A stretch of DNA of 51,474 nucleotides from Akkermansiaceae bacterium. Lineage in GTDB: Bacteria; Verrucomicrobiota; Verrucomicrobiia; Verrucomicrobiales; Akkermansiaceae. The stretch covers positions 1 through 51,474 of the forward strand of contig JAQXBQ010000260.1 in the NCBI GenBank assembly GCA_029252325.1. The letters run 5' to 3'. Positions 15,369-50,786 of the stretch are shown in pieces. Numbering within the stretch: the stretch's first letter is position 1; the number at the start of each line of letters is the position of its first letter. A program made the position numbers and the translations under genes. The notes beneath the pieces are model-generated. The model was not told where the DNA came from. It saw only the letters and a program-made list of their open reading frames with translations, and searched no databases.

Positions 15369-15944
15369 ATGGACAATTCTTCGACATCGCCCATCTCCCA
15401 AGATGCTCATGAAAATGAGGCGGACGGGGCGTATGTTACCTTGCTGACTCAACATCAGGTCAATATTCAAGCCTTTATCACGAGCCTTTTGCCTGGTGAC
15501 CCTGATATCGAAGACGTCTTGCAGAGAACCAACATCGTCCTCTGGAACAAACGTGAGCAGTTTGAGCAGAATACCAACTTCAAGGCCTGGGCATTCTCCA
15601 TTGCCCGCTGGGAAACAAAGGCCTGGCTCACCGAGAAAAAAAGAAAAGACTGGCTGGTGTTTAACGATGAACTCACCGACCAGATGGCCGAGCAATTCCA
15701 AGAATCAATACCAGATCAGAAGAATGAGGATATGCTCCCGTCTCTCCGCCGCTGCTTGACCAGGCTCAGTGACAACGAACGCTTTCTGATTTTCAACTAC
15801 TACCAAGCTGACAAATCGATCGCTGAGTGCGCTGCTATCGTCAAAAAAACCGAAGGGGCTCTCAGGGTAGCCCTATTCCGAATCCGCATAAGCTTACGTC
15901 GCTGCATCGAATCCCATCTCGCTGGAAAGGAGGTGACCTCATGA
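15369..15944 (+). CDS. ECF RNA polymerase sigma-70 factor
   Basis: EDVLQRTNIVLW, NFKAWAFSIAR region 2; CL..L....R.LI...Y...SIAE.A.......GALRVALFRIR..LRRC region 4. Confidence 0.93.
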   Translation: MDNSSTSPISQDAHENEADGAYVTLLTQHQVNIQAFITSLLPGDPDIEDVLQRTNIVLWNKREQFEQNTNFKAWAFSIARWETKAWLTEKKRKDWLVFNDELTDQMAEQFQESIPDQKNEDMLPSLRRCLTRLSDNERFLIFNYYQADKSIAECAAIVKKTEGALRVALFRIRISLRRCIESHLAGKEVTS

Positions 15945-17275: not shown

Positions 17276-17329
17276 TCTCACCAAATTAAAAAACCTATTT
17301 CACACCTAAAAAACACCACAAAAAACACC

Positions 17330-18058
17330 ATGAAAACAACAAACAATAAACCACTACTGACTCTGGCGTGTCTCGTTGCCACGGCTACGGCACTACCGGC
17401 AGCCATCATCTCGACGACTGTCTTCGTTGATGATTTCGACACGGACACATCTGCCGATTATATACTGACCGACACCTTTCTAACCGGCGGTTCGTTTAAC
17501 GTTTCAGAAGGCACGCTTAACGTGACCTCCGCCAGTAACAATACCGCCGATGTCTTTTACGACACGGCTATCTTTGAGATTGGTCAAACTGTCAGCGTCG
17601 ATCTCTCTGGCGCTAAAAATTCCTATTTGAGTGTCTCTACAACAACACGTGCCGCCAATACAGGTACTGAGGATGGAGTCAGATTGAATTGGGAAACTAA
17701 CGGCACGTTCCAAGCAAAAAATTATACCAATGGGACTGCTTCCACTCTTGGATTTGATGGCGCATTTGACGTGGATGCAAGCTCAGTCACACTCTATCTC
17801 TATCGTGCCTCAGACAATGTATTCGCTGCCGCCTTTGATGATGGCAGTGGCTTCACCTGGCTCAACACCACCGGTGGCACAGAGAGAGAGGATTTCACTG
17901 TAGGTGATACAGGTAATGGAGCTTTGTATGTCGGCGTAGAGACCTATAATCCTGGAACACGCAACTTCGACAATCTCACCCTTTCCGTTCCTGAGCCATC
18001 TTCCACAGCCTTGCTTGGCCTCGGGGGACTTGCGCTCATGCTGCGCCGCAAGCGATAA
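17330..18058 (+). CDS. PEP-CTERM sorting-domain surface protein
   Basis: Signal peptide; Thr/Asn/Gly-rich body; C-terminal VPEPSSTALLGLGGLALMLRRKR. Confidence 0.95.
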   Translation: MKTTNNKPLLTLACLVATATALPAAIISTTVFVDDFDTDTSADYILTDTFLTGGSFNVSEGTLNVTSASNNTADVFYDTAIFEIGQTVSVDLSGAKNSYLSVSTTTRAANTGTEDGVRLNWETNGTFQAKNYTNGTASTLGFDGAFDVDASSVTLYLYRASDNVFAAAFDDGSGFTWLNTTGGTEREDFTVGDTGNGALYVGVETYNPGTRNFDNLTLSVPEPSSTALLGLGGLALMLRRKR

Positions 18059-37457: not shown

Positions 37458-37511
37458 TCGTCCGCCGGAGGCGGATCAGCTGCGCTTGCGGCGCAGCATC
37501 AGGGCAAGGCC
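37458..37511 (-). repeat. 54-bp repeat copy A (PEP-CTERM tail + 3' hairpin), inverted relative to 45029-45082
   Basis: Reverse complement is identical to 45029-45082. Confidence 0.9.
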
Positions 37512-38285
37512 GCCAAGGCCGAGCAGGGCGGTGGAGGAGGGCTCGGGGACGGCAGTCACCAAGAAATGTTCCATGGCCACCCCCGTATTTGATATGGTAG
37601 AGGTCGATTCTACGAAGAATCCAAAGGACTGGGCACTGACGATATCCGGCGTGCTTGCAGCACCTATAGTGTCAACTCCTGCACTGAACGTTGTGTAGGA
37701 ACTCCAGGACAAGCTGGATGCTGATCCAGAAAAGCTGTCCAAACCTGAGGCGGGAGCTGTGACAGAGAAGGACTGGCTGATGTGCCACTGGCCCGCGCTG
37801 TCTTCCAACAGAAAGCGCATGGACCCGGTGTCCGCGGCTGAGCGCAACTGCCCCTCCCAGGTAAAGTTGTAATCCTTATAACCCGTCGAACTGCTGAGGG
37901 TGTGAACCCCACTTTCCCAGGCGAACATGGCTTCGACCCCAACGGCACCTGAGCCCTGTATGAACATACGGTCACCGGGAGTTGTACGATCCTGCATCTG
38001 GTGAGTTGTACCACTCGTAGTGTGGGCACCATTGTAGGTGGGCGTGCGGTCGACAGCACTGGGATAGTAACTGGCTCCGACCGTTGGGTTGATCGAAGCG
38101 CCGTCCGAATAGGTTGTCGCCGTTGTACCCGTGGTATTGCCTGGGACTATACCCTGGTCTCCACCCGATTCACCCCAGTGAACAAGGGTCGTAGCCGCCG
38201 GTAATGCGGTGGCGGAGATGAGAAGGGCCGAGGCTGCGAGGAGGCTTGTGGTTTTCATGGGTTTCATGGGTTTCATGGGTTTCAT
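37476..38285 (-). CDS. PEP-CTERM sorting-domain surface protein
   Basis: C-terminal VPEPSSTALLGLGGLALMLRRKRS; signal peptide; real start may be any of four repeated ATGs (38258-38285). Confidence 0.95.
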   Translation of the reverse strand: MKPMKPMKPMKTTSLLAASALLISATALPAATTLVHWGESGGDQGIVPGNTTGTTATTYSDGASINPTVGASYYPSAVDRTPTYNGAHTTSGTTHQMQDRTTPGDRMFIQGSGAVGVEAMFAWESGVHTLSSSTGYKDYNFTWEGQLRSAADTGSMRFLLEDSAGQWHISQSFSVTAPASGLDSFSGSASSLSWSSYTTFSAGVDTIGAASTPDIVSAQSFGFFVESTSTISNTGVAMEHFLVTAVPEPSSTALLGLGGLALMLRRKRS

Positions 38286-38288
38286 GGG
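38253..38288 (-). repeat. 9-bp tandem repeat (CCCATGAAA x4) at the start codon
   Basis: TTTCATGGG x4 on + strand, giving MKPMKPMKPMKT. Confidence 0.9.
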
Positions 38289-38342
38289 TTTTATTGGTTT
38301 TTGGGGTTGGTGTTTTTTGAAAAAACTATTGATCAGACGAGA

Positions 38343-38391
38343 AGTTTACTGCGTGTAGACGATTTTGTCTACCTGCCCGTTTAGGTAGGTA
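38343..38391 (-). promoter_or_regulatory. sigma70-like promoter P1 (TAGACA-17-TAAACT) with overlapping palindrome ACCTGCC-N6-GGTAGGT
   Basis: -35 at 38366-38371, -10 at 38343-38348, inverted repeat 38370-38391. Confidence 0.6.
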
Positions 38392-38428
38392 TGTTGCCCA
38401 AGCATAAAATGACTGCTGATCACTGGTC

Positions 38429-38475
38429 ATAATATTCATTTCTGGAATGTTGTCCACCTACCTGTTTTGGGGGGT
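38429..38475 (-). promoter_or_regulatory. second promoter/operator copy P2 (TGGACA-16-TATTAT; ACCTACC-N6-GGGGGGT)
   Basis: Imperfect ~31-bp direct repeat of the P1 operator/-35 region, 85 bp away. Confidence 0.5.
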
Positions 38476-38638
38476 ATGCTTCTGGCCCGGATATGAGGCA
38501 TTGTTCATGTGCCGAGGCAGACGGATGAATCTTCACGCTTCTGCAGATCATGATGAATCAAGCGTAAGCTGAGGGAGCAGGATATCTTTGCGTGATCCTT
38601 GTTGCCGCCTAGAGGCTCAGGCTTTATAAGCAAAACCG

Positions 38639-40624
38639 ATGTTCTTTACTTTTCCAGGCCGCCTTGCCTTGATGACCTGCCTGATTGCGCTGCTCACGGC
38701 CAACTTGCAGGCCGAGGAGGAACGCGGGCAGCATTCCGCGGCTGGTCTGGAAGAAAAGCTGGCTAGCATTGACCGGGAGCTCGGGCAGCTGGCACGCCCG
38801 AACATGCGCAGCGGAGCGGGGTCCATTGGCTATCGCTCGTTTCCCGCTCACGGCGAGCCTGATCATGAGGAATGGTTCCAGGTGGAACTGGGGCAAGTAA
38901 GAACGGTTGATCGGGTTGTTCTGGTTCCCACCATTTGGCGGGATTCAAAGCACGGCCCCGTTGCCGATGGTTTTCCTCTGGAGTTCCGGGTGCTCGCGGG
39001 CACGGGAGAGGACAGTGAGGGCGAGGTGATCGCGTCCTTTACTAAGGACGACCAGCTGTTGCCGCGCTCCGCGCCCCTGGTAATCCCGTGCCAGGTGGAG
39101 GCCCGCTGGATCAGGGTGGAGGCCACGCGGCTCTCGGCCCGGCACTTTGATGGCCGCTATAATCTGGAGCTAGCTGAGCTGATGGTCTTTGAGGGGGATG
39201 AAAATGTGGCACTCCATTGTCCGGTGAGGGTGTCCGGAAAAATTCCCGGCCCAGGTGCACGAGAGCCGCAATACTTGGTGGACGGGTTCATGCCGTATAA
39301 CATGGAAAGCCAGTCGGGCAACGGAACGGCGGCTTATTTCTCAAAGCATGAGCCTGACGAGGAGGTGCAGATCACCCTGGATCTCGAGGGCATCCATGAG
39401 CTCAACCAGATCAATCTGCACGCGGTGGATATTCACGACACCATACCACATGACCAGCAGGCCGGCTTTGGCTTTCCTGATGAGCTGGTGGTAGAGGGGG
39501 GCATGAAGGCGGATTTCTCCGATGCGCAGACCCTGTGCCGCTATGTGAAGGACTCCTATAATGTGGGGCCGATTGTGATGCAACGTTTCCCCAAGAAGAG
39601 CTGCCGCTATGTCCGGCTGAGAGTCGTGCGCCCGGCACGAGTTGAGGGTGAGAAGACTGGAACAGGTTTTGCGGAGATCGAACTGCTCGCAGGGGGCAAA
39701 AACGTGGCCCGGGGACGTTTGCCCCGGGTGATGGGATTGAAGGTCACCGGGATACGGCAGCCATCAAGCATAACGGATGGACGCAACATCCGCGGTGTCA
39801 TTCTGCCGCTGCGGCAATGGATGGAGCAGCTGGCCCTGCATCATGATCTGGAGCGCAGCCGCCCGGCCCTGGCCGCTGAATTGCAAGGTCTCTATGAAGC
39901 ACAGAGAGAGAGGCTGCGCTATTTCGGCTGGGTGATCGCCATCCTGGTGGCGGCCGTGGTGTTTATCATCCTCATCGACCTTCTGCTGCGCCAGCGTCAG
40001 GCCGCCCGCCTCAAGGAACGCTTTGCCGCTGATCTGCATGATGAGCTGGGGGCGAACCTGCACACCATTGTTTTGTTGGGTGATGTTGCGGCGAAAAAAT
40101 CCAATGCCCTGCCGGAGGAAATAACCGGCTTGATCGAGCGCATGCAGGCAACGGCGAAACGCTCCGCCTTTGCGGTGGAGCACGTCACGGATCTGCAGGT
40201 TGCTGGCAGGATATGCAAGAACCTGCCCGTGGACATGCGCCGGGCTGCGGAGCGCATTGTGGTGGAGCTCAAGCACGATTTTTCCGTGGAGGGTGAGGAA
40301 CACCTGGCAAAGGTCCACCCGCGTGACCAGGTGAATCTGTTTCTCTTTTACAAGGAGTGCCTGATCAACAGCTGCCGCCATTCCGGAGCCACCGAGCTCA
40401 GCACCCGTCTGGTGATCAGGGCGAGGAGTCTCGAGCTCTCTGTGACTGACAATGGCAGTGGCCCGGACGATGGGGCCGGTGGGCGCGATCAGGAAGTTCC
40501 GCTCTCACTCACACGGCGCGCCAAGTTCCTCGGAGCTCGCGTCACCCGCACCCGGCCACCGGGTGGTGGATCATGCATCACGCTGAACATGCGCACCTGG
40601 AACCACTGGCTGCGGCGACGCTAA
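38639..40624 (+). CDS. HisKA_3 sensor histidine kinase with tandem discoidin/F5-8C-like periplasmic domains
   Basis: Signal peptide; WFQVELG..RTVDRVVL, ARWIRV, LAELMVF...NVAL, ITLDL, CRYVRL, FAEIE; one TM helix; H-box ADLHDELGANL; KECL.N..RH; TDNGSG. Confidence 0.88.
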   Translation: MFFTFPGRLALMTCLIALLTANLQAEEERGQHSAAGLEEKLASIDRELGQLARPNMRSGAGSIGYRSFPAHGEPDHEEWFQVELGQVRTVDRVVLVPTIWRDSKHGPVADGFPLEFRVLAGTGEDSEGEVIASFTKDDQLLPRSAPLVIPCQVEARWIRVEATRLSARHFDGRYNLELAELMVFEGDENVALHCPVRVSGKIPGPGAREPQYLVDGFMPYNMESQSGNGTAAYFSKHEPDEEVQITLDLEGIHELNQINLHAVDIHDTIPHDQQAGFGFPDELVVEGGMKADFSDAQTLCRYVKDSYNVGPIVMQRFPKKSCRYVRLRVVRPARVEGEKTGTGFAEIELLAGGKNVARGRLPRVMGLKVTGIRQPSSITDGRNIRGVILPLRQWMEQLALHHDLERSRPALAAELQGLYEAQRERLRYFGWVIAILVAAVVFIILIDLLLRQRQAARLKERFAADLHDELGANLHTIVLLGDVAAKKSNALPEEITGLIERMQATAKRSAFAVEHVTDLQVAGRICKNLPVDMRRAAERIVVELKHDFSVEGEEHLAKVHPRDQVNLFLFYKECLINSCRHSGATELSTRLVIRARSLELSVTDNGSGPDDGAGGRDQEVPLSLTRRAKFLGARVTRTRPPGGGSCITLNMRTWNHWLRRR

Positions 40625-40644
40625 AACGAAGATCACTTTTTAAT

Positions 40645-41295
40645 ATGAAAAAAACAAACATCATGCTCGTCGAGGACAACCCCGACTACCGGCAGGCCGT
40701 CAGCCTGGCCCTTGAAGATGAGCCTTGGATCAAGGATATGCGGATTTTTGGCGCTGCGGAGGTCGCCCTGCGTGCTTTGCAAGCGGACCGGGAAGAACCC
40801 GCACCCGGCATCATCCTGCTCGACATCAGTCTGCCCGGCCTGAGTGGAGTCGAGGCCATTCAGCAATTTCAATCCCTGTGCCCCGAAGCAAGCATCATCA
40901 TGTTGACCCAGTCAAACCGTGAGGCCGACGTCATCGAGGCCGTGCGGCAGGGTGCGGCAGGGTATCTGCTGAAATCCTCCTCGATGGATGAGCTTATCGA
41001 TGGGGTTCGCACGGTGATGCAGGGCGGGGCTCCGCTCGATCCGGCGGTCACGAAGCATGTGATTAAGGCTCTCAGTGGTCAACAGGATCAAGCGGCTGCA
41101 GAACATGATCTTTCCCCACGTGAGTTGGAAATGCTCCAGCTGATGAGTGAGGGGATGCTCAAGAAGCAAATTGCGAATCAGCTCAAGATCAGTGAGCACA
41201 CCGTGGCCTTTCACATTAAGCATGTTTACCGGAAATTAGACGTCAACAACTCTCCCGCCGCTGTCAGCAAGGCTCACCGTGCCGGTATTCTCTAA
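40645..41295 (+). CDS. NarL/LuxR-family response regulator
   Basis: IMLVEDN, ILLDISLPG, MLT, GAAGYLLK; LSPRELEML...G...KQIA.QL.ISEHTV HTH. Confidence 0.95.
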   Translation: MKKTNIMLVEDNPDYRQAVSLALEDEPWIKDMRIFGAAEVALRALQADREEPAPGIILLDISLPGLSGVEAIQQFQSLCPEASIIMLTQSNREADVIEAVRQGAAGYLLKSSSMDELIDGVRTVMQGGAPLDPAVTKHVIKALSGQQDQAAAEHDLSPRELEMLQLMSEGMLKKQIANQLKISEHTVAFHIKHVYRKLDVNNSPAAVSKAHRAGIL

Positions 41296-41353
41296 TGTGG
41301 AATGCGGCCAGCAGACAATAACCCCCGCCGTGATCAGCCGGAGCCCTAGCCCG

Positions 41354-43345
41354 CTAGAAAAACGGCAACCAGCTCCTGATGGCAATAACTAGAGTGATGC
41401 GGCTACCGCGGCCAGTGTCTTCCACAGGACTCTCGATGCGCAGCGTGCCGCGGAGTATTTTGGCACGGCGCTTGATGGACGGCGGCACCGAGCCGGGTGA
41501 CAAGCCACGGCCGTTGTCGGTGATGCTGATGATGAGCTTACCACGCTGGGCATGGATACTTGCATCAAACTTGTCTGCCTTGGCATGGCGGCTGATGTTC
41601 ACCAGGCACTCCTTGTAAAAAAGAAACAGGCCAGCGCGGCGCAATGGCTTGAGCATGGCAACCTGCTCTTTGTCATCAACCGTGATATTGTAATCATATC
41701 CTTCCATCATTCGGTGGGCAATGCGGTGCATATCCTCCTCAAAGTCGCTGAGCGGAGTGTGGGGCTCCAGCGTATCAGAGCAGTGCCGCACCGAGGCTGC
41801 GGTGCGCTCGGTGGTATCACGAATCTCGCCGACGACGTCGAGCAGCGAACTCTGCTCATAATCTGCAGCAACCAGCGCCGCCTCCTCACGAGCAATGTCA
41901 CTCAGCAAACCGATAGCATGAAGATTAGCCCCCACCTGATCATGCAGGTCCGCGGCCAATCGCTGCCGCAAGCCATTCATCTGACGCAAACGTATGATAT
42001 GACTGAGCAGGATAATAATGACCAAGGCCCCACCAATCAGAAAGGAGAAATTTTTCAGCAAGGTATAGTGCTGTTCTTGCTCCGCATAGAGCTGATCAAC
42101 CCTACCCATGAGCCGTGGACGTTCTGTCAAGAGATCATGACGTAGCGCAAGTTGCTCAATCCAATCACGAGTATTGATAATTCTGCCAAACGCATTGAAC
42201 CCATCCGTCATTTGTAACGGCAAATTATGAATCTGCTCAGCCTCAAAACCAGGGCTTAACTCAATCCCTGCGAGCACATTCCCCCCTTCGGACAAGACCT
42301 CAATCTCAGCAAAACCGATCATATTGACAATCATACCCGTCTCCGCTGTATCTACTAAGTCCCCCTTCGGTACGGTGATACGTAAATAACGACAAGCATG
42401 CTTAGGAAAGCGCCGGCAGACGATGGATGAAACATCATACATCGTCTGCTGTTCATATTCATAGATGACTTGAGCATCTGAAAAATCCGCCTGCACAGCA
42501 CCTTCTAAAACAAGTCGACGCGGAAAAGCAAAATTAGCACGGTTAGCTTGGGGAATCGTGTCACTGACATCAATACCGTGTAAATGCAGACCATTAATAG
42601 GAATTACTTCACCGAGATCAGCTGTGAAATTTACCACCTCCCCCGCCATGATCCTGACAAAATAGGCAGTGCTTTTATTTCCTGGCACGTTCATCAAGTA
42701 AGGCAGCGAGCCATCTACAAGATATGCCTTTTGCCTGGCTCCCGCATGAAGATCACCTCGTGACGAAGTACTGACACTGCAACCTAAGGCCAAATTTTCC
42801 TTATCTTGAAATACCATTATTTCGGCCAGTTGCAGCACCTTTTCACCATTCCAAGCCAATGTGCCTAGCTCAGTAGCAACTACTTTGACCCACGAGGCTC
42901 GGGTTCCAGGGCATGCAATGGTCAGCGGGGCAATACGAGGCAAGACCATGTCCTTTCGGTCAAAAGAAGCGATCAGCTTGCCCTCCGAATCACCCTCAAC
43001 TCCAGCAAAGATCTGAAAACTCAGCGGAAAACCATCCGCAATATAGCTGTTGTAGCTGCCACGCGACAGGGCAGGCACGACAGCGATAAGATCAATGTCC
43101 TGCTCGCTACCCAAATCAACGCGAATCCATTCGGTGTGGTCTACATCGATATGTGCCTGTGAACGCCAACCGATAGGACCAACACTCGTCTGCAAGCTGA
43201 AAGAAGCGAGCCCCTTCAGCTTCCTGTCCATCACCTTCAGTCGGTCGAGCAGGGCATCGATATCCTCCTCCTTGGCACATAGGCCACCCGCCAGCATCGG
43301 GATGGCGCAACAGAGCAACAGAATGAATCGAGAATAGAGATACAT
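41354..43345 (-). CDS. HisKA_3 sensor histidine kinase with tandem discoidin-like periplasmic domains (paralog of 38639-40624)
   Basis: EWIRVDLG, ADGFPL.F.I.AG, LAEIMVF...NLAL, YLVDG, H-box ADLHDQVGANL, LFLFYKECLVNISRH, TDNGRG. Confidence 0.88.
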   Translation of the reverse strand: MYLYSRFILLLCCAIPMLAGGLCAKEEDIDALLDRLKVMDRKLKGLASFSLQTSVGPIGWRSQAHIDVDHTEWIRVDLGSEQDIDLIAVVPALSRGSYNSYIADGFPLSFQIFAGVEGDSEGKLIASFDRKDMVLPRIAPLTIACPGTRASWVKVVATELGTLAWNGEKVLQLAEIMVFQDKENLALGCSVSTSSRGDLHAGARQKAYLVDGSLPYLMNVPGNKSTAYFVRIMAGEVVNFTADLGEVIPINGLHLHGIDVSDTIPQANRANFAFPRRLVLEGAVQADFSDAQVIYEYEQQTMYDVSSIVCRRFPKHACRYLRITVPKGDLVDTAETGMIVNMIGFAEIEVLSEGGNVLAGIELSPGFEAEQIHNLPLQMTDGFNAFGRIINTRDWIEQLALRHDLLTERPRLMGRVDQLYAEQEQHYTLLKNFSFLIGGALVIIILLSHIIRLRQMNGLRQRLAADLHDQVGANLHAIGLLSDIAREEAALVAADYEQSSLLDVVGEIRDTTERTAASVRHCSDTLEPHTPLSDFEEDMHRIAHRMMEGYDYNITVDDKEQVAMLKPLRRAGLFLFYKECLVNISRHAKADKFDASIHAQRGKLIISITDNGRGLSPGSVPPSIKRRAKILRGTLRIESPVEDTGRGSRITLVIAIRSWLPFF

Positions 43346-43499
43346 GCAAAAGAAAGAGCATTAGGATATCCCGCGAATCAGAAACCGCAAGCACGGTCAT
43401 TCGACTAACTTTGCTCCAAAATGAATAATGTTCAAAGAATGGGCCGATGGCCACAGCTTGAAACTCTGCTTCATGAGTGGGCATCGCCAATCCTGCCAG

Positions 43500-43546
43500 C
43501 ATCACCCAGAAGGGTGATGGACAAAAGCGAAAAATGTGTATATTAT
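43500..43546 (+). promoter_or_regulatory. sigma70-like promoter (TGGACA-17-TATTAT) with overlapping perfect palindrome CATCACC-N6-GGTGATG
   Basis: Palindrome 43500-43519, -35 at 43518-43523, -10 at 43541-43546, upstream of the PEP-CTERM gene. Confidence 0.65.
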
Positions 43547-43630
43547 TATAAATAATGCTCTTGTATTGATTAGTTTTTCTTAATAATTAACAAATCCTCT
43601 CTCTTCAATAACAAACCCAACTCCACTACC

Positions 43631-45064
43631 ATGAAAATCAGGCACTACATAACCAACAGTCTTCTCACCCTGATGAGCACAGTGACGATCGCACATGCGG
43701 CGACGCTTAATTGGGACGGCAGTTTTGACAACACCTGGAACACCGGAGCGAACTGGGATACCAACACCACACCCGGTAGTGGAGACACCATCAACATCGG
43801 CAGCGGCAATACGGTGACTCATAACCACAGCCAGTTCTTGCCCGGAGGAGGCGCAATCATCAATCTGGATGGTGAATTGAGTGCCGGCGTATTGCGATGG
43901 AGTAGCAGCACCACCAATGTCGGCTCCACCGGCATCATCTCCGGCGGCTTCAAGGACCTCAACAGTGCTACTTTTAACTTTGATGATGGTGCCCAGTTCA
44001 CTGCCAGCAACTGGGAGCACAAGGGAACCAACGTGTTCAACTTCAACCTGAGTAGCACCGGATTTAGTGCCCTAACACCCGGTCAACTCAATTCCAACGG
44101 CGCTGTCTCGACCACCTACAGTGCCGACATGGCCAGTTACACTGGCGGGAACAATGTAGTCACACTAGTGGACTTCGGCAGCGATGGCATCGGCCTCAAC
44201 AATGCAACCTTCACCGGTGGCGGTCAGTATTCTCTCAGTGTCAACAATCCGGGTAATGATAGCGGTGCGCTCTACTTTGACAACATAGACAAGGCGGTCC
44301 GGCTCAACGTTAACCAGACCAAGGTTTGGACGGGCGGTGCGGCAGGCTTTAATACCACAGGAAACTGGATTGGAGCCTCTGACCAGTCGGGACCCGTCAG
44401 TGGTGTGGATAACATCCTTCTCGATACTGCGGTAGCCACCATGAACCAAACCATGACCAGTCCATTCACCATTGCCGACGGACGCAGCTTTGAGGCGGTT
44501 GGCTCTGGCACACATACCCTGCGTCTGCAATCAACCCTGACCATCGAAAGCGGCGGCACTCTGGATTTTACCACTGGTGGCAATCACGTTATTGCCGAAA
44601 GTAGTAACAACGCGGCGCGCTTTACTGTTCACTCAGGAGCTGACGTTAATCTGTGGCGACTGTTCAGTGGCAACGGCTGGACCTTTGAGTTCATCTCCGG
44701 AACAGATGGTGTCAGCACGGTTGGGATCAATGGTGGTTTCTGGCTGCGCGCCGGCGCTGACCTGGAAGTCGATGTATCCGGGCGTGGGGGCGGATACTTC
44801 AGCGAAACCCTCTTTGATTACGACACCCTGTTCGAAGCAAGCTCATTTGATCAGGAAAGCATCAGCTACGGCAACTACGGAGACCTGACGTTGAGTAGCT
44901 TCGATCCTCTGGGAGACGTCACAGCTCTGGACTTCGGCACCTACTGGATTGACTACACCACGGGTACCGACATCACGCTGTTCTATTTCGTGCCCGAGCC
45001 TTCCTCCACTGCACTATTAGGCCTCGGAGGCCTTGCCCTGATGCTGCGCCGCAAGCGCAGCTGA
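43631..45064 (+). CDS. PEP-CTERM surface protein with beta-helix/autotransporter-passenger-like repeats
   Basis: Signal peptide; W.G....WNT..NW motif twice; G/N/T/S-rich; C-terminal VPEPSSTALLGLGGLALMLRRKRS. Confidence 0.93.
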   Translation: MKIRHYITNSLLTLMSTVTIAHAATLNWDGSFDNTWNTGANWDTNTTPGSGDTINIGSGNTVTHNHSQFLPGGGAIINLDGELSAGVLRWSSSTTNVGSTGIISGGFKDLNSATFNFDDGAQFTASNWEHKGTNVFNFNLSSTGFSALTPGQLNSNGAVSTTYSADMASYTGGNNVVTLVDFGSDGIGLNNATFTGGGQYSLSVNNPGNDSGALYFDNIDKAVRLNVNQTKVWTGGAAGFNTTGNWIGASDQSGPVSGVDNILLDTAVATMNQTMTSPFTIADGRSFEAVGSGTHTLRLQSTLTIESGGTLDFTTGGNHVIAESSNNAARFTVHSGADVNLWRLFSGNGWTFEFISGTDGVSTVGINGGFWLRAGADLEVDVSGRGGGYFSETLFDYDTLFEASSFDQESISYGNYGDLTLSSFDPLGDVTALDFGTYWIDYTTGTDITLFYFVPEPSSTALLGLGGLALMLRRKRS

Positions 45065-45082
45065 TCCGCCTCCGGCGGACGA
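45029..45082 (+). repeat. 54-bp repeat copy B (PEP-CTERM tail + 3' hairpin)
   Basis: GGCCTTGCCCTGATGCTGCGCCGCAAGCGCAGCTGATCCGCCTCCGGCGGACGA. Confidence 0.9.
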
Positions 45083-45121
45083 CGAGCGATGAAGGATGAG
45101 CGATAGCCGCAAGCCGGCTTC

Positions 45122-45156
45122 AACCAAGAACTAGGAACCAAGAACTAGGAACCAAG
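45122..45156. repeat. heptamer tandem repeats (AACCAAG/AACTAGG alternating)
   Basis: Five units directly visible. Confidence 0.85.
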
Positions 45157-45224
45157 AGCGCTGCCAGCCGCCGACGTTGTCAGGGCTAGCGGCTCCCTAC
45201 TTAAACTAAATCCGCCCCGCGGAT

Positions 45225-45908
45225 TCAATCTCCCTCTTTGATGGGAAGAATTCCGCTCTCGTAGGCCTTGCGAACGGCCGCCGGAGCATTTGATACACTG
45301 AGCTTATCGTATATGTGTCTAATGTGGGTAACCACGGTATTTTCCGTGATAGTCAAGGCCCTCGCTATTTCCTTACGCAACAAACCGCGACTGATATGCT
45401 CAAGAACTTCGAGTTCACGTGCACTGAGTTGGCTTCCTGATAAGCTACATGACCCACTGTTTTGAATCTGATCCAACAAATACTTTGCAATACTTGGATC
45501 TAAGATAGCGCCCCCCTGAACCACGGTGCTAATCGCATCTCTGATTTCTTGCATTGAGGCTGATTTTAGCAAGTAACCAGATGCTCCCAGTTGAATAGCT
45601 TCGATAACGTCAGCTCGCTTATCTGACTGAGTAAGCACCACAATTTTGGCGTGTGGTGCATATTGCTCAATCCAGCTCATCGACTCAAGTCCCTGCATCT
45701 TGGGAAGACCCAGATCAAGCAAGATAATATCGATATCATTAACAGCATCTGGCCTCTGCAGTTCTGCCAAGGCTTGCTCGGCACTGCCGAATTTACCAAC
45801 GAGCTCATAACCCTTACTGCGCTCCATCGTCATGGAGATCGCACGCCGATATTCGGGATTGTCCTCAATGAGGATAATCTTAATGGCTTGAGCTGGCGCA
45901 GTAGTCAT
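45225..45908 (-). CDS. NarL/LuxR-family response regulator (paralog of 40645-41295)
   Basis: IILIEDNPEYR, ILLDLGLP, VLTQS, GASGYLLK, LSARELEVL...G..RKEIA HTH. Confidence 0.95.
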   Translation of the reverse strand: MTTAPAQAIKIILIEDNPEYRRAISMTMERSKGYELVGKFGSAEQALAELQRPDAVNDIDIILLDLGLPKMQGLESMSWIEQYAPHAKIVVLTQSDKRADVIEAIQLGASGYLLKSASMQEIRDAISTVVQGGAILDPSIAKYLLDQIQNSGSCSLSGSQLSARELEVLEHISRGLLRKEIARALTITENTVVTHIRHIYDKLSVSNAPAAVRKAYESGILPIKEGD

Positions 45909-45927: not shown

Positions 45928-48222
45928 TTAAGGGGCTATATTTAGCGTAATCGTCTGCTGCTGATTCCAAGGGCGTTTATTAATGTATACTTTATATAGG
46001 TTTTCACCAGCAGATTCGATTTTGGTGATCTCGCAGTTAGCGGCCTCGCCAAGCGTGAGTGGCTTGTCACTGTGAATGGTGAGATTTCCCTGCTGTGCTC
46101 CGGCCGGGTTGAGCTGGATGACCATCTTGCTTGCAGTGACACGGATATCCCCCACCTCAGTGGTTCCCATGGCGAGGTGCAGGTTCGAGCCCACCAGAGT
46201 CGGACCCGTCTCATTGAGTGGTGTGATTCGTACCATGGCAGATGAATATTTCTCCAGTGGCGTGGTGTTGTAAGAGCCCTCGGTGAAGGCGATCACTTTC
46301 TCCTCCCAGAAATCATAGACAGCGCACTCTTGAGCAATAGGTAATCCGGTGTGCTTGAAGTTCAGGTTGATGTGAGCTTTATCCTCCTTGGAGTTGTAGA
46401 GATTGTATACGGCAAAGTCGCCATAGGGGCGCTCAGCGGTGAAGCCGAAGATGGTGTTGTCCGCAGTCTGGCCCAAGCTCAGAAGGCGTGTATTCTCGGT
46501 GTGAGAGGGGCGTAGGATCTCGTAGTTGCGCCACATTTTGTCAACACCTGGGGCATCGAGAGGGTCACTCACCATGGAGGTGCCTCCTACCAGTGCCACT
46601 GCATTGTGCCAGGTGCGCCACATACCCTCGCCCTCAGGGGTGCCACCGAGTGAACGTGGTGTGCCATTGACCTTCGTGCCAGTTGCACTGACGTAAGCCA
46701 CATCAGGGTCATTCTGCCACCAGACGTTGTCGTAAATCTGAAAGCGCAGCACAGACTTGAGGCACTTACTGAAGTGGGCTGGGTGCGAGTCAGGACCAAC
46801 ACGGGCGGCATCAATGAAGCCGATCACCCCGCGGGTAGGCTGACCCAAGCAAGAGAGAATGTAAATATCCTCACCAGCGGCATCGCGGTAGAGGGTGTAG
46901 AGGTCACGGAAAACCTGTAGGCGGGTCTTGGTCGGGTCAACAAAGCGGGATCCAATACCGTTGAAGTCGATCTTGATGTAGCCGTAGCCACGCTCACGCG
47001 CGTCGGAGATGATCTTGTGCAGGTAGACTTTGGTCGCGGGGTGATCTGGGTTGACCCATTTCGCACCGGCGGGGTGGAAGGGGTTTGCATTCATAAAGCT
47101 AGCAATCCCTTTGGCATTGGTTTGAATCGCATCCGGATTCTCTTTGATCCATGGGTGCTCTGGGTTGATCATCAGCGGAGCGAACCAGACACCAGGAATA
47201 CAACCGGCATCACGGACTTGCTTGGCAACTGCTGCCATGCCATCAGGGAACTTTTTATTCGCGCTCCAGTCTCCGTCCATCTTTTGGTAACCGTCATCGA
47301 TCTGGATAATGCCCTTACCGAAGGTGTTTGGATTGTCGTTGATGGTTTTAGTGACATTGAGCACGTGCTCCGCGGTGATCTTGGTGGTGAGGTCATACCA
47401 GCTACACCAGCCGTAAACGGGACCACGGTGAATACGGGCTTTATGAGTGGTAGCAATCCAGCGTGTCCAGATGTCTGTGGCAGTGGCAGTAGGCTCAAAG
47501 CAGACAATCATCTCCTCAGAGCGGCGGCTCTCGCCAGCACGAACAAGCACTCGGTCCATCTGAGCGTATGCTTTAAGTTTCTGGTTTTTAACCTCAACAC
47601 GGCAGTGAGCCTCGGCAGGCCCCACAGGCCCAACTAGCAAACTGCGTCCGTCCTTGTGGGCAATGAGAACAACCTCGTTAAAACCACCATTGGTCTCGGC
47701 AAGAGAGAGAGCATCAGCGTCCTGCATCAGCGGGGTCACTAGCCACTTCGCAGAGTCCCCAGAGGCGAGAGTCTTGATATCACCAGCAGACTGATCGATC
47801 AGGTCGATGTGGTTCAAGTTAGTGTCTTTATCACTACGGTTGTGAAATACTCCTTGCACAGTAAATGCACGCAAGTTCTTGAGACGCTTCAAGGTCAGAG
47901 TGTATTGGTAAGGAGAAGCATCTTGGCCGTAGGTAGCTCGTGTTACTACGGCTTCGCCGAATGGAGTATCCGCCGTGCTAGTCTCCACCGTACCGATAAG
48001 CTTATTACCTTTGGTTCTGACCGCTTGGTTTTTACCATCGGCATTGAAAAAGGCAGAGGAAACTGCCTTGGACGGGGCAAAACCCGGCGCATTGATCATG
48101 ATTTCACCGGTTTCGGCCGAGAGGCTGACCCAGTCTTTAGCGGATTGTTGCGCGGAGGCGAATGGGCTGGAGTACGTCAAGGCGAAGACGGATAGCAATG
48201 AGAGAGTAAATCTTAATTTCAT
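45928..48222 (-). CDS. GH36/GH27-clan (alpha-galactosidase-like) glycoside hydrolase, secreted
   Basis: Start re-placed at MKLRFTL; GWCSWY, IIQIDDGYQ..GDW, KFPDGM, PGVWFAP, YIKIDF, RVGPD, WQNDPD. Confidence 0.85.
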   Translation of the reverse strand: MKLRFTLSLLSVFALTYSSPFASAQQSAKDWVSLSAETGEIMINAPGFAPSKAVSSAFFNADGKNQAVRTKGNKLIGTVETSTADTPFGEAVVTRATYGQDASPYQYTLTLKRLKNLRAFTVQGVFHNRSDKDTNLNHIDLIDQSAGDIKTLASGDSAKWLVTPLMQDADALSLAETNGGFNEVVLIAHKDGRSLLVGPVGPAEAHCRVEVKNQKLKAYAQMDRVLVRAGESRRSEEMIVCFEPTATATDIWTRWIATTHKARIHRGPVYGWCSWYDLTTKITAEHVLNVTKTINDNPNTFGKGIIQIDDGYQKMDGDWSANKKFPDGMAAVAKQVRDAGCIPGVWFAPLMINPEHPWIKENPDAIQTNAKGIASFMNANPFHPAGAKWVNPDHPATKVYLHKIISDARERGYGYIKIDFNGIGSRFVDPTKTRLQVFRDLYTLYRDAAGEDIYILSCLGQPTRGVIGFIDAARVGPDSHPAHFSKCLKSVLRFQIYDNVWWQNDPDVAYVSATGTKVNGTPRSLGGTPEGEGMWRTWHNAVALVGGTSMVSDPLDAPGVDKMWRNYEILRPSHTENTRLLSLGQTADNTIFGFTAERPYGDFAVYNLYNSKEDKAHINLNFKHTGLPIAQECAVYDFWEEKVIAFTEGSYNTTPLEKYSSAMVRITPLNETGPTLVGSNLHLAMGTTEVGDIRVTASKMVIQLNPAGAQQGNLTIHSDKPLTLGEAANCEITKIESAGENLYKVYINKRPWNQQQTITLNIAP

Positions 48223-48399
48223 GATAGTTGAGTGAAGTAGAGTTGGTAAGGCTGCTGGCAGTAAGTAACGCTTATCTGCCGACACTTGCACAAGTCCGTT
48301 ACTATACGCAAATCACTAGACTTGCCTATCCCCCAAAAAGGATTTTGTGCCATTTTTTTTGAGCAGATACTTACTGCAAAAAGAGCACAGATTCACAGC

Positions 48400-49095
48400 T
48401 CATGCTTGGCCGTAATAGGCACTATTACCATGTTTGCGCTCGTGATGCTTGCTGAGAATATGGGCAGGAATCGCAGCCGCCTCAGGGTTAAGCTGCCACG
48501 TCATCACGGCCATCCTGGCACACATCTCGAGGGCGATGCTGTTATCCAAAGCCGCTTGGGCAGACTTGCCCCAGGTGAAAGGGGCGTGATGCTTGAGTAA
48601 AATGGCGGGCATTTCCAGTGGGTTGAGGCCGAGCTCTTGAAAGCGCTCAACGATACTCACTCCGGTGGCGTGCTCGTAGTCCTCGGCTACTTCCTCAGCC
48701 CTCAAGGCACGTGCCACAGGCACCTCACCGTAAAAATGATCTGCATGGGTAGTGCCGAGGCAGGGCAGGCCTAACCCAGCCTGGGAGAATGCCGTGGCAG
48801 ACGGACTATGGGTGTGCACAACGGCTCCGATGTCGGTGAAATTGCGGTAAAGCTCAAGATGGGTCTTGGTATCGGAGGAGGGTCTGAGATCCCCATTCAC
48901 TACCTCACCCTCGAGATCAACCACGACCAGATGATTCACTGTCAGATCCTCATAAGCGACACCGCTCGGCTTGATGGCGACGAGGCCACTCTCACGGTCA
49001 ATGGCACTGACATTGCCCCAAGTGAGGGTAACCAGCCCGGAGCTGACCAGCGCCTTGTTGGCGTCCACGACTTGTTGTTTGAGCTCTTCGTTCAT
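48400..49095 (-). CDS. araD: L-ribulose-5-phosphate 4-epimerase
   Basis: LVTLTWGNVS.IDRESGLVAIKPSGV, PSSDT.TH..LY, VHTHS, GTTHADHFYG, H..RKHG..AYYGQ. Confidence 0.95.
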   Translation of the reverse strand: MNEELKQQVVDANKALVSSGLVTLTWGNVSAIDRESGLVAIKPSGVAYEDLTVNHLVVVDLEGEVVNGDLRPSSDTKTHLELYRNFTDIGAVVHTHSPSATAFSQAGLGLPCLGTTHADHFYGEVPVARALRAEEVAEDYEHATGVSIVERFQELGLNPLEMPAILLKHHAPFTWGKSAQAALDNSIALEMCARMAVMTWQLNPEAAAIPAHILSKHHERKHGNSAYYGQA

Positions 49096-49112
49096 GATGG
49101 TGTGTTTTGTTT

Positions 49113-50786
49113 TCAGCGCTGCTTTTGACGGATTTCAATCAAGTCTTTCATAACGTGTTCCAGTGAGCCTGACCATCCGGTTTTACCAAAGGCATCGTGC
49201 AGGGTTTTATAGAGCGCATAAAGCTCAGCGTAGACGATCTGGTTTTCAGGAATCGGTTGGTAGGTTGTGTCTGTGTAGCTGACCACACGCTGCTGCAGAT
49301 CAGCCAGACTTGCATGCCCCGCGGCCACAGCTCCGAACAATGCGGCACCAAGCGCGCAGGTTTGCTCGGACTTGGAAACCCGCATAGGACGCCCCAGCAC
49401 ATCGGCATAAATCTGCATCAGGGTCTCGTTCTTCAGCGAAAGCCCCCCGGTGTTGACCACCTCGTCGATCACCACCCCGTGCTCCTCCATGCGGTTAATA
49501 ATGGTGAGTGCCCCGAAGGCGGTCGCCTCAATGTAGGCACGGTAAATTTCATGAGCATGGGTGTGCAATGTCTGGCCGAGTAGCAGGCCAGAGAGCTGGA
49601 CATCGGTGAGGATCGTACGGTTGCCATTGTTCCAGTCGAGTGCCAGCAGGCCTGAGGCCCCCGGCGGCTGGTCTTTCATTTTTGCCTCCATAGCGGTGAA
49701 TTTCTCCCCCGCATCGGCACCGTAGCTATCAGGCACTAGGTTGTGAACGAGCCAGAGGAAAATATCCCCCACGGCAGACTGACCCGCCTCGACCCCGACC
49801 ATGCCAGGCACAACCGAGGAATCCACCTGGCCACACAAACCAGGCACATCATCAACAGCCTCGTCCGCCACGGTGATGTCACAAGTGGAGGTTCCCAAAA
49901 CCTTGACCAGCGTTCCTTTTTTCACCCCCGAACCCACCGCACCCATGTGGCAATCAAAGGCCCCCACGGCGATGGGGATACCCGCCGGCAGGCCAAGCTT
50001 CTCCGCCCATTCATCGCACAGTTCGCCAGCAGGGGTATCAGAGGCATGGGCCTCTTGATAAAGTCGACCACGCAAATCAGCGAGTGCAGGATCGAGCTGC
50101 GTAAGGAAGTCAACATCGGGCAAACCATCCCAATCCGCATTGAACATCGCCTTGTGCCCAGCGGAGCAAATAGAGCGCTTCAAGGTCAGTGGATCGGTAT
50201 TGCCTGCGAGTACTGCGGGCAACCAGTCACAGTGCTCGACAAAAGAATAGGCCGCGTCGAAGACTTCGAGGTCGGTGTTTTTTAGGTGCAGGATTTTTGA
50301 CCACCACCACTCGGAGGAATAAACGCCACCACATTTGGCGAGGTACTCGGGCCGGGTCTCGCGGGCGAGTTCCGTGATTTGCTCCGCCTCGTGGAAGGAA
50401 GTGTGATCCTTCCAGAGCCAGACCTGAGCATCGAGGTTCTCTGAGAAGCGCTCCTGCATGGCAAGGGGTGTGCCGTCTTGATCGACGGGGATCACCGTGG
50501 AACCGGTGGTATCAATGCCGATGCCGACGATGTCCGAGACGTCAAAAGCGCTGCCCGTCTGCTGCGCCTGGGCCATCGCCTCACGGATGATGCTCTCGCA
50601 ACCGTCAAGGTAATCCTGCGGGTTCTGGCGTGCCACGTGCGGATCACCCGGTTCTGTCAGGATTCCCTGCACACCAGAGGGATACGGAAAGACCGAACTG
50701 CCGAGCTCACGACCGTTTTCCAGATCTACGATCAGGGAACGGCAGGAGTTCGTGCCATAGTCGAGACCGATAGAGTAATTGGGCAT
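49113..50786 (-). CDS. araB: L-ribulokinase
   Basis: IGLDYGTNS.R, ARQ.P.DY, GIGIDTTGST, LWKDHT, GGVYSSEWWWSK, CSAGHKAM, EAGQSAVGD, LDW.NG.RT. Confidence 0.93.
   Translation of the reverse strand: MPNYSIGLDYGTNSCRSLIVDLENGRELGSSVFPYPSGVQGILTEPGDPHVARQNPQDYLDGCESIIREAMAQAQQTGSAFDVSDIVGIGIDTTGSTVIPVDQDGTPLAMQERFSENLDAQVWLWKDHTSFHEAEQITELARETRPEYLAKCGGVYSSEWWWSKILHLKNTDLEVFDAAYSFVEHCDWLPAVLAGNTDPLTLKRSICSAGHKAMFNADWDGLPDVDFLTQLDPALADLRGRLYQEAHASDTPAGELCDEWAEKLGLPAGIPIAVGAFDCHMGAVGSGVKKGTLVKVLGTSTCDITVADEAVDDVPGLCGQVDSSVVPGMVGVEAGQSAVGDIFLWLVHNLVPDSYGADAGEKFTAMEAKMKDQPPGASGLLALDWNNGNRTILTDVQLSGLLLGQTLHTHAHEIYRAYIEATAFGALTIINRMEEHGVVIDEVVNTGGLSLKNETLMQIYADVLGRPMRVSKSEQTCALGAALFGAVAAGHASLADLQQRVVSYTDTTYQPIPENQIVYAELYALYKTLHDAFGKTGWSGSLEHVMKDLIEIRQKQR

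What the first reader, a model, noticed from the sequence alone, without database searches (positions are those of the whole stretch)
37476..45908. Twin 'lectin-sensor kinase / NarL regulator / PEP-CTERM' modules: a candidate glycan-sensing system controlling surface proteins
Seen: two paralogous HisKA_3 kinases, each with two discoidin/galactose-binding-like periplasmic domains and each divergently transcribed from a different PEP-CTERM gene, plus two paralogous NarL regulators. The order is PEP<- ->HK1->RR1 <-HK2 PEP-> <-RR2. Established: proteobacterial PEP-CTERM genes are typically under PrsK/PrsR and sigma54, which is a different architecture. Inference: each module senses a specific oligosaccharide and switches on one dedicated surface protein, forming a repeated sensor-to-surface-protein cassette next to fucan- and arabinose-use genes. 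I do not recall this being characterised.
Basis: partly seen in the sequence, partly recalled or inferred. Interest (0 to 1): 0.85.

Follow-up and report, generated by a model that had tools for sequence, protein, structure and literature searches.

The report
Lectin-fold sensors switch on surface proteins
A marine Verrucomicrobia genome carries two unrelated copies of a widespread sensor-kinase/regulator pair whose sensor has a predicted sugar-binding-type fold, and each regulator likely switches on its own set of surface-protein and sulfated-sugar-degrading genes through its own short palindromic DNA site, which would supply the missing control system for PEP-CTERM surface proteins outside Proteobacteria.

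Summary
All six genes are present as described. The kinases belong to a large, uncharacterised family in polysaccharide-degrading Verrucomicrobiota and Planctomycetota (up to 16 per genome). Their periplasmic part is two CBM32/discoidin-fold domains, one nested inside a circularly permuted other (pLDDT 96, Z 10-12). In 35 of 66 loci with a complete head-to-head partner, that partner is a PEP-CTERM gene (own-genome baseline 8 of 491); most other identified neighbours are sulfatases or glycoside hydrolases. New here: each regulator lineage has its own 20-bp 7-6-7 palindrome abutting a sigma70-type -35 that faces the partner gene. The palindrome sequence tracks the regulator residues equivalent to NarL V189/K192 (ranks 1 and 2 of 162 columns). 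This pairs RR1 with PEP1 and RR2 with PEP2. RR2's site occurs 8 times in the genome, 5 of them before PEP-CTERM genes, so 'one dedicated surface protein' is wrong. The twin is two independent cassettes side by side (39% identical; module 1 absent or deleted in relatives). Sugar binding, phosphotransfer and activation are untested. No description found in ten literature searches, apart from a passing note of such kinases beside sulfatases.

The parts
37476..38285 (-). PEP1, PEP-CTERM surface protein (269 aa), predicted target of RR1
   Evidence: paralogue at C139, 33-38% identical
38343..38371 (-). sigma70-like promoter 1 facing PEP1 (TAGACA-17-TAAACT), -35 abutting operator A
   Evidence: consensus match only
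38371..38390 (.). operator A, 7-6-7 palindrome ACCTGCC-N6-GGTAGGT, predicted RR1 site
38429..38456 (-). sigma70-like promoter 2 facing PEP1 (TGGACA-16-TATTAT), -35 abutting operator B
38456..38475 (.). operator B, ACCTACC-N6-GGGGGGT, second predicted RR1 site (78% direct repeat of the operator A region)
38639..40624 (+). HK1 sensor kinase (661 aa): N-terminal hydrophobic segment, helix, nested discoidin pair, helix, TM at about residue 425, H-box His467, HATPase with atypical G2 box
38816..39799 (+). HK1 sensor: discoidin domain 1 core (38816-39196), inserted intact domain 2 (39197-39697), and the N-terminal-type segment that completes permuted domain 1 (39698-39799)
40645..41295 (+). RR1, NarL-family regulator, recognition helix TVAFHIKH
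41354..43345 (-). HK2 sensor kinase (663 aa), same architecture, 39% identical to HK1, His468
43500..43519 (.). operator C, CATCACC-N6-GGTGATG, predicted RR2 site; 8 copies of this type in the genome
43518..43546 (+). sigma70-like promoter facing PEP2 (TGGACA-17-TATTAT), -35 overlapping operator C by 2 bp
43631..45064 (+). PEP2, PEP-CTERM surface protein (477 aa, 44% S/T/N/G), predicted target of RR2
45225..45908 (-). RR2, NarL-family regulator, recognition helix TVVTHIRH; predicted cognate of HK2
45928..48291 (-). GH36/GH27-like hydrolase co-oriented with RR2; preceded by an RR2-type operator in G015 and G006 but not here
48400..50786 (-). araD and araB (ribulokinase), upstream of the hydrolase-RR2 pair

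Best explanation
These are two independent two-component cassettes of one large family, in which a membrane kinase with a predicted nested pair of CBM32/discoidin-fold domains likely senses a periplasmic breakdown product of an algal polysaccharide and likely phosphorylates its own NarL-type regulator, which then likely binds its private 7-6-7 palindrome beside a sigma70-type -35 and would activate PEP-CTERM surface-protein genes and sulfatase/hydrolase operons. HK1-RR1 would drive PEP1 from two tandem promoters. HK2-RR2 would drive PEP2 and a dispersed regulon: four more PEP-CTERM genes, a beta-strand-repeat protein and a Verru_Chthon-A-like gene, plus the hydrolase-RR2 operon in relatives. 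Paralogues in one cell would be insulated because two base-contacting residues of the recognition helix and the operator arms change together. Shown: gene order, family size, neighbourhood enrichment, fold model, the palindromes, their position and their covariation with the helix. Inferred: ligand, phosphotransfer, DNA binding, activation rather than repression, surface location.
For: Fold: pLDDT 96.3; best structural matches are CBM32 for both domains, Z 11.7/10.9 and 10.3, rmsd 2.2-2.5. The permuted topology is supported by profile alignment, probability 99.5, E 6.6e-23. Pairing: a regulator lies directly downstream in 102 of 112 loci. Neighbours: 26 sulfatases and 16 hydrolases/esterases among 88 chosen neighbours. 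Palindrome: over 10 bits in 20 of 49 loci leave-one-out and 12 of 28 held-out loci, versus 12 of 181 control intergenics. Covariation: RR2 positions 194 and 197 rank 1 and 2 of 162 columns; they align to NarL V189 and K192, which contact bases (PMC10853779 passages). RR1's boxes retrieve the other TVAFH-helix loci at ranks 2, 4, 5, 8 and 23 of 76. Direction: a promoter faces the partner in 13 of 39 groups and the kinase in 3 of 39, p 0.002, the geometry of NarL at -43.5. Regulon: 8 sites at spacer 6 versus 0-2 at the other 12 spacers; 5 of 28 PEP genes versus 6 of 1597 other genes carry it. All 7 genomes with an RR2 orthologue have the site (25 sites), versus 7 of 24 without (9 sites).
Against: No binding or expression data. 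The same fold serves protein- and lipid-binding domains (neuropilin, factor V/VIII, muskelin, DOC), and sequence searches put neuropilin-2 first for domain 1. No sugar-binding residue could be mapped. The ATP-lid reads PxSLxRRA instead of GxGL in 81 of 119 members, so kinase activity is unproven. The simple rule 'Thr gives an A arm' failed on held-out loci (p 0.24), and the tree-aware pair test was not significant (6 pairs, median p 0.5). Non-contact positions also correlate weakly (r 0.16), and receiver position 71 ranks third with r 0.25. The sequence-blind pick for the PEP1-HK1 gap chose a different palindrome than operators A/B. 26 of 39 groups show no abutting promoter at the threshold. 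G013 has an RR2-type box near PEP genes although no RR2 orthologue was found there. The PEP baseline comes from one genome, and kin are not independent.
Confidence: 0.62

Rival explanations
1. The regulatory wiring is as described, but the signal is not a sugar: the discoidin pair binds a protein or peptide, a surface or envelope cue, or a metal, and the polysaccharide genes respond to contact or envelope state.
For: Discoidin folds bind proteins and lipids in neuropilin, DDR1 and factor VIII. Neuropilin-2 is the best sequence match for domain 1. The same nested cassette sits in a DUF1549/DUF1553 protein of unknown ligand. Many targets are adhesin-like beta-repeat proteins.
Against: The top structural matches for both domains are CBM32s. 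Close non-kinase relatives include a protein with beta-helix and GH141-insertion hits, and one member carries an extra NPCBM module. Up to 16 divergent paralogues per genome next to different CAZyme sets suits many distinct sugar ligands.
Confidence: 0.22
2. The regulators mainly control polysaccharide-degrading operons; PEP-CTERM genes are activated only because they tend to be the first gene of such operons, or sit there as mobile passengers.
For: 31 of 66 complete head-to-head partners are not PEP-CTERM, and 0 of 6 in family f45 are. PEP genes often lead co-oriented sulfatase/hydrolase runs. PEP genes also lie beside ECF/FecR-type regulators. 23 of 28 PEP genes with an intact upstream region lack the RR2 box.
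Against: Operators recur before individual PEP genes within tandem arrays and at distant sites (G371 loci L231, L232, L237, L238). PEP1 has two boxes, and PEP2 is followed by a convergent gene, so its promoter can serve only PEP2.
Confidence: 0.25
3. The palindromes are repressor sites, or belong to another factor; the regulators repress the PEP promoters or only control their own kinases.
For: The box overlaps the -35 by 1-2 bp, which can also block polymerase. Three of 39 groups, and loci L237/L238, show the promoter on the other side.
Against: The position matches class II activation by NarL. The box sequence tracks the regulator's own contact residues, and the site follows the RR2 orthologue across genomes.
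Confidence: 0.1
4. The twin arrangement is a functional four-component unit or a tandem duplication with cross-talk, for example RR1 serving both kinases.
For: RR1 lies between the two kinases; close relative G010 keeps the RR1-HK2-PEP2-RR2 junction at 98.6% identity.
Against: HK1 and HK2 are 39% identical, no closer than other paralogues, and are not sisters. G015 has HK2 next to yihY with no module 1, G002 lacks PEP1-HK1-RR1, and G009 keeps only their outer ends. The hydrolase-RR2-PEP-HK2 unit is conserved in G015, G021 and G006. GC is 0.60 for HK1 versus 0.51 for HK2.
Confidence: 0.05

Closest known systems
NarX/NarL-type two-component systems (HisKA_3 kinase + NarL/FixJ regulator)
   Same: H-box, N-box and G1 box; receiver plus LuxR HTH; palindromic operator of two 7-bp arms centred near -43 beside a sigma70-type -35 (PMC10853779 passages).
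   Different: Sensor is a nested discoidin pair; G2 box is PxSLxRRA; operator spacing is 7-6-7 rather than 7-2-7; many paralogues per genome, each with its own operator.
PrsK/PrsR/sigma54 control of PEP-CTERM genes in Proteobacteria (PMC1569441)
   Same: A two-component system acting through a DNA motif upstream of dispersed PEP-CTERM genes; exosortase EpsH is present.
   Different: NarL-type rather than NtrC-type regulator; sigma70-type promoters; several parallel small regulons instead of one global one; no PrsK/PrsR over cut-off. That paper states that regulators and motifs outside this class remained to be found.
CBM32 / F5-8 type C / discoidin domains
   Same: Fold of both sensor domains (Z 10-12); Pfam F5_F8_type_C at E<=0.001 in 37 of 52 members.
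   Different: Domain 1 is circularly permuted with domain 2 inserted in it, so both chain ends return to a helical stalk; used as a kinase input, not appended to an enzyme; binding residues not mapped.
Bacteroides hybrid two-component systems and ECF/anti-sigma pairs controlling polysaccharide utilisation loci (recalled, no call)
   Same: Works like them: paralogous local sensors beside glycan-degrading gene clusters.
   Different: Separate kinase and regulator, discoidin rather than beta-propeller sensor, LuxR rather than AraC DNA-binding domain, and PEP-CTERM rather than SusC/D targets.
HisKA_3 kinase/regulator pairs noted beside hydrolases and sulfatases in Pontiella agarivorans (10.1101/2023.06.09.544357, passages)
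   Same: PF07730/PF02518 kinase plus PF00072 regulator near sulfatases, suggested to sense substrates; Pontiella proteins are members of this family.
   Different: In the passages seen there is no sensor fold, family definition, operator or PEP-CTERM link.

Membership tests
NarL/FixJ response regulator | Receiver domain with phospho-acceptor Asp plus C-terminal LuxR HTH | tested here: met
   PF00072 and PF00196 over cut-off in RR1 and RR2; LLD motif; HTH aligns to NarL without gaps through the recognition helix
HisKA_3 sensor kinase | H-box His in a HisKA_3 dimerisation domain | tested here: met
   ADLHD with His467/His468; PF07730 over cut-off for HK2, under for HK1; motif in 110 of 119 members
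HisKA_3 sensor kinase | Complete HATPase with N, G1 and G2 boxes | tested here: inconclusive
   N box 117 of 119 and G1 109 of 119, but G2 reads PxSLxRRA in 81 and GxGL in 11; PF02518 below cut-off
HisKA_3 sensor kinase | Autophosphorylation and transfer to the cognate regulator | not testable with these tools
   needs a biochemical assay
CBM32/discoidin | Discoidin beta-sandwich fold | tested here: met
   both model ranges 25-150 and 194-317 match CBM32 at Z 10-12
CBM32/discoidin | Conserved sugar-binding residues | tested here: inconclusive
   profile alignments to solved CBM32s were partial and weak; no paper giving the residues was found; conserved Arg66/Arg101 in domain 1 and His261 in domain 2 are candidates only
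CBM32/discoidin | Carbohydrate binding | not testable with these tools
   needs glycan array or ITC
F-type lectin (fucolectin) | His/Arg fucose-binding motif (recalled) | not tested
   fucolectins appear at Z 9.1-9.4, below the CBM32 rows; motif not checked
PrsK/PrsR system | TIGR02916 kinase and TIGR02915 sigma54-interacting regulator | tested here: not met
   no match over cut-off in the genome; RR1 and RR2 lack a sigma54-interaction domain
PrsK/PrsR system | sigma54 -24/-12 motif upstream of the PEP-CTERM gene | tested here: not met
   no TGGC-type motif in either intergenic region; one loose GG-N10-GC faces HK2, not PEP2
PEP-CTERM/exosortase substrate | C-terminal PEP motif, hydrophobic helix and basic tail | tested here: met
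   PF07589 and TIGR02595 over cut-off for PEP1 and PEP2
PEP-CTERM/exosortase substrate | Exosortase EpsH in the genome | tested here: met
   TIGR02602 132 bits vs cut-off 105.6
PEP-CTERM/exosortase substrate | Surface display after processing | not testable with these tools
   inferred from the family
Bacteroides hybrid two-component system | Single polypeptide with beta-propeller sensor and AraC output (recalled) | tested here: not met
   separate genes, discoidin sensor, LuxR HTH

The most novel reading that the evidence does not exclude
This is the main glycan-sensing layer of marine Verrucomicrobiota and Planctomycetota that degrade fucoidan-like sulfated polysaccharides: a mobile, expandable cassette in which a circularly permuted lectin pair reads one oligosaccharide and a two-residue helix-to-operator code routes the signal to a private regulon of PEP-CTERM surface proteins and sulfatases. 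Regulons, and through them candidate substrates for hundreds of unannotated PEP-CTERM proteins, could then be read from genome sequence.
Probability: 0.45. Interest if true: 0.85.

Novelty: new variant of a known kind. Interest (0 to 1): 0.7.

Why it matters
How Verrucomicrobiota and Planctomycetota sense recalcitrant algal polysaccharides is largely unknown, and the paper that defined PEP-CTERM left the regulators and DNA motifs outside the proteobacterial class as an open question (PMC1569441). This family offers exact, testable answers: named kinases in cultured Pontiella, Lentimonas and Rhodopirellula, 20-bp operators, predicted promoters and predicted target lists. It also adds a sensor architecture (nested, permuted discoidin pair) and a natural set of orthogonal regulator-operator pairs.

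Tried and rejected
Single-sequence structure prediction was poor (pLDDT 42) and was replaced by a 149-row alignment. Unmasked Gibbs sampling found only coding periodicity and AT tracts. A one-residue rule (Thr gives an A arm) held in training (p 0.0075) but not in held-out loci (p 0.24), and the independent-pairs test lacked power; the column-wise test was used instead. A genome-contig scan with HK1 alone gave 2 loci; L002 was dropped as a duplicate of L056. The metagenome scan with alignment A2 could not run, so no metagenome loci were tabulated. No match in PLSDB plasmids. The ESM Atlas gave only sub-0.9 discoidin leads. RNA runs: 5 runs from 2 studies held 5-9% of the words; contigs of the 4 laid covered parts of module 1 at mostly 90-99% likeness and not HK2, which shows neither expression nor absence. 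No RR2-type box was found before the hydrolase in this window within 1 mismatch. Earlier findings of the scan: none returned. No complex prediction was run, since kinase-regulator pairs pass by likeness and would not discriminate cognates. Rejected: tandem duplication, PrsK/PrsR membership, one-target-per-module. Literature: searches found no description of the family; searches were for comparators. The library lacks most subscription papers, and no supplements were read, so tables of regulators or transcript data there could bear on novelty.


Full report
Observation. PEP1 and PEP2 pass PF07589 and TIGR02595, and RR1 and RR2 carry receiver plus LuxR HTH domains. HK2 passes HisKA_3 and HK1 falls just short; F5/8 hits are below cut-off in both. 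The kinases are 39% identical over their length, and the PEP proteins share only the tail. Each kinase has an N-terminal hydrophobic segment and a second one near residue 425. araB and araD and a GH36/GH27-like gene (PF02065 just over cut-off) lie upstream of RR2 on the same strand. GH29 and GH95 are 30-37 kb away. Named relatives place the organism among marine Verrucomicrobiota (L002 is titled Oceaniferula sp.).

A family, not a one-off. The genome (2.49 Mb, 285 contigs) has 6 full kinases and 1 fragment, 6 regulators and 1 fragment, and 41 PEP-CTERM ORFs among 1826. Matches occur in 17 of 24 genus relatives, 37 of 301 genomes drawn from the phylum (some are single-domain hits in other proteins; 0 of 22 in sister genus g15), and 27 of 73 in family f11, with up to 16 per genome. 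A profile finds 597 representatives at E<=1e-30. Source names include Pontiella, Lentimonas, Luteolibacter, Rhodopirellula and Rubripirellula, annotated only as generic kinases or hypothetical proteins.

Neighbourhood. I tabulated 112 kinase loci (103 clusters at 90% identity, 61 at 60%); the filter dropped distant members lacking the A[DN]LHD motif and the duplicate L002. A regulator follows directly in 102. Upstream lie 35 divergent PEP genes, 31 other divergent genes, 10 divergent genes cut by a locus or contig end, 6 co-oriented PEP genes, 16 other co-oriented genes, and 14 contig ends. So 35 of 66 complete head-to-head partners are PEP-CTERM, against 8 of 491 in the own genome; 26 of 61 clusters have one; family f45 has 0 of 6. 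Of 88 non-PEP neighbours sent to Pfam (70 of 121 first neighbours, chosen by dropping short or doubtful ORFs, plus 18 second genes), 26 were sulfatases, 16 hydrolases or esterases and 24 had no family.

The twin is a juxtaposition. G015 has hydrolase-RR2-PEP-HK2 followed directly by yihY. G002 lacks PEP1-HK1-RR1 and has a frameshifted HK2. G009 keeps only the 3' ends of PEP1 and RR1. G021 and G006 keep hydrolase-RR2-PEP-HK2. HK1 and HK2 are not sisters in a FastTree tree of 78 kinases.

Sensor. With a 149-row alignment the periplasmic part folds at pLDDT 96.3, pTM 0.94, as helix, beta region, helix. Foldseek ranks tandem CBM32s first (E 6e-9), then neuropilin b1b2 and a fucolectin. VIA-align gives Z 11.7 and 10.9 for model residues 25-150 and 10.3 for 194-316, against CBM32s. 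The canonical N-terminal segment (NVA...DG) occurs twice: before domain 2 and again after it. Moving the second copy in front of the domain 1 core gives a full-length match to domain 2 (probability 99.5, E 6.6e-23, against 98.5 for the core alone). Domain 2 is therefore inferred to be inserted into a circularly permuted domain 1, which brings both ends back to the membrane stalk. The same cassette occurs in a DUF1549/DUF1553 protein. Sugar-binding residues could not be mapped, so a glycan ligand rests on fold and context. The G2 box is atypical in 81 of 119 members.

Operators. The divergent gaps hold a 20-bp palindrome. Dyads CCC-N8/10-GGG and TCAC-N8-GTGA are enriched over shuffles and over 181 control gaps. 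A matrix scores over 10 bits in 20 of 49 gaps leave-one-out and in 12 of 28 held-out gaps, against 12 of 181 controls. A sequence-blind 7-6-7 palindrome score is higher in 78 kinase gaps than in controls (median 7.6 vs 6.6). Most regulator orthogroups have their own arms. Across the 43 of 47 groups with a clear palindrome, arm similarity correlates with the residues at RR2 positions 194 (r 0.34) and 197 (r 0.26), ranks 1 and 2 of 162 variable columns, and this holds among pairs under 50% identical (r 0.44, permutation p<0.001). These positions align to NarL V189 and K192, which contact bases (PMC10853779, passages). Against this: the K188-equivalent shows nothing, non-contact positions give r 0.16, position 71 ranks third, a one-residue rule failed on held-out loci, and the pair test on the tree was not significant.

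Pairing in the window. Operator C resembles the boxes of Thr-194 regulators (mean 3.6 of 6, 16 groups) more than those of Phe/Tyr ones (2.1, 4 groups), which with synteny assigns it to RR2. Operators A and B retrieve the five other TVAFH-helix loci at ranks 2, 4, 5, 8 and 23 of 76, from two clades not grouped with RR1, which assigns them to RR1. The sequence-blind pick in that gap chose another palindrome overlapping the -35.

Direction. Each of the three window boxes abuts a sigma70-like -35 facing the PEP gene (the region-wide count, 9 against 5.7 expected, is not itself striking). Across 39 groups a promoter of at least 8/12 abuts the box towards the partner in 13 and towards the kinase in 3 (p 0.002). 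The box centre falls near -43 (start site inferred), where NarL activates (PMC10853779). No PrsK/PrsR passes its cut-off, no sigma54 motif faces the PEP genes, and EpsH is present.

Regulons. The RR2 half-sites occur 8 times at spacer 6 and 0-2 times at each of 12 other spacers. Five sites precede PEP-CTERM genes (C157, C9, C19, C77, C161). One precedes a cut gene whose counterpart in G010 carries beta-strand repeats, one a Verru_Chthon-A-like gene, and one has a promoter facing a contig end. Four of the five PEP targets begin with a similar short Trp/Asp/Gly N-terminal repeat. All 7 genomes with an RR2 orthologue (G010's is cut by a contig end) carry the site, 25 copies in all; 7 of the other 24 carry 9. 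The two of those inspected in kinase-less genomes lie inside ORFs without a promoter, but G013's lies near PEP genes with a promoter. In G015 and G006 a box precedes the hydrolase, which in G015 is followed by RR2, suggesting positive feedback; this window lacks it. Other classes behave alike: in G371 three patterns give 4, 5 and 3 sites, mostly before individual PEP genes or sulfatase genes, though the first pattern's reversed control also had 2 hits there.

Mechanism. Most likely a periplasmic oligosaccharide binds the discoidin pair, the stalk transmits the signal, His467/468 is phosphorylated, and the cognate regulator binds its palindrome and recruits sigma70 polymerase to PEP-CTERM and CAZyme promoters. 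I put the wiring (regulator to operator to PEP genes) at about 0.8, a glycan signal at about 0.7, and the whole at about 0.6. The function of the PEP proteins themselves (substrate capture or adhesion) is an inference.

Novelty. The parts are of known kinds. The paper defining PEP-CTERM says the shared motif is confined to Proteobacteria and that further regulators and motifs remain to be found (PMC1569441, passages). A Pontiella preprint notes such kinases beside sulfatases in passing (passages). Two fucoidan papers do not treat them (PMC11685898 passages; PMC13668718 zero term hits). Searches (listings only) found no description of the family, sensor or operators; subscription papers and supplements were not seen. 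Verdict: new variant of a known kind, interest 0.7.

Noticed in passing
P0128; ~1100-aa ORFs in families f12, f30, f41: The nested, permuted discoidin cassette also sits inside a DUF1549/DUF1553 planctomycete-type protein, between helices, suggesting a shared ligand-binding insert. The long ORFs with single-domain hits were not inspected.
   Followed up: partly
window 40400-40600 and 41400-41520 (kinase C-termini): The ATP-lid reads PxSLxRRA in 81 of 119 members, while several distant members keep GxGL/M; the effect on activity is unknown.
   Followed up: partly
window 1576-1595: A palindrome like those at C57:12203, C152:171, C121, C202 and C220 lies before degraded sulfatase fragments and the sulfatase/GH95 run; possibly a site for another paralogous regulator, which would tie the fucosidase genes to this family.
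   Followed up: partly
window 15827-18058; G000 C19:6675-9842: A third PEP-CTERM gene follows a FecR-like gene (read by eye, no family hit), and another precedes an ECF sigma/anti-sigma-like pair: PEP genes sit beside more than one type of regulator.
   Followed up: no
P0005, P0027, L145: Variant architectures: an NPCBM module fused before the sensor, a kinase fused to its regulator, and a 925-aa longer kinase; the first two could be assembly artefacts.
   Followed up: no
G371 contig C2: 13 of 16 kinases lie on the smaller 0.88-Mb contig, each with its own regulator lineage.
   Followed up: partly
L113, L122, L125, L128, L136, L144: Large secreted neighbours without PEP-CTERM end in a shared aromatic-x-Arg/Lys beta-strand-like tail, perhaps another sorting signal, common in family f45.
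   Followed up: no
window 44990-45100 and other PEP tails: PEP-CTERM tails are 73-91% identical as DNA across the genome, and many kinase and PEP loci end at contig breaks, so neighbour counts are probably underestimates.
   Followed up: partly
L059, L041, L075; G000 C9:4378-4701 and C81:1269-1517: Frameshifted or truncated kinases and regulator remnants are common, consistent with rapid gain and loss of cassettes.
   Followed up: no
G000 C78:2900 and C34:906: A near-identical palindrome precedes a distant PEP gene and the C34 kinase's partner, suggesting a second dispersed regulon.
   Followed up: partly
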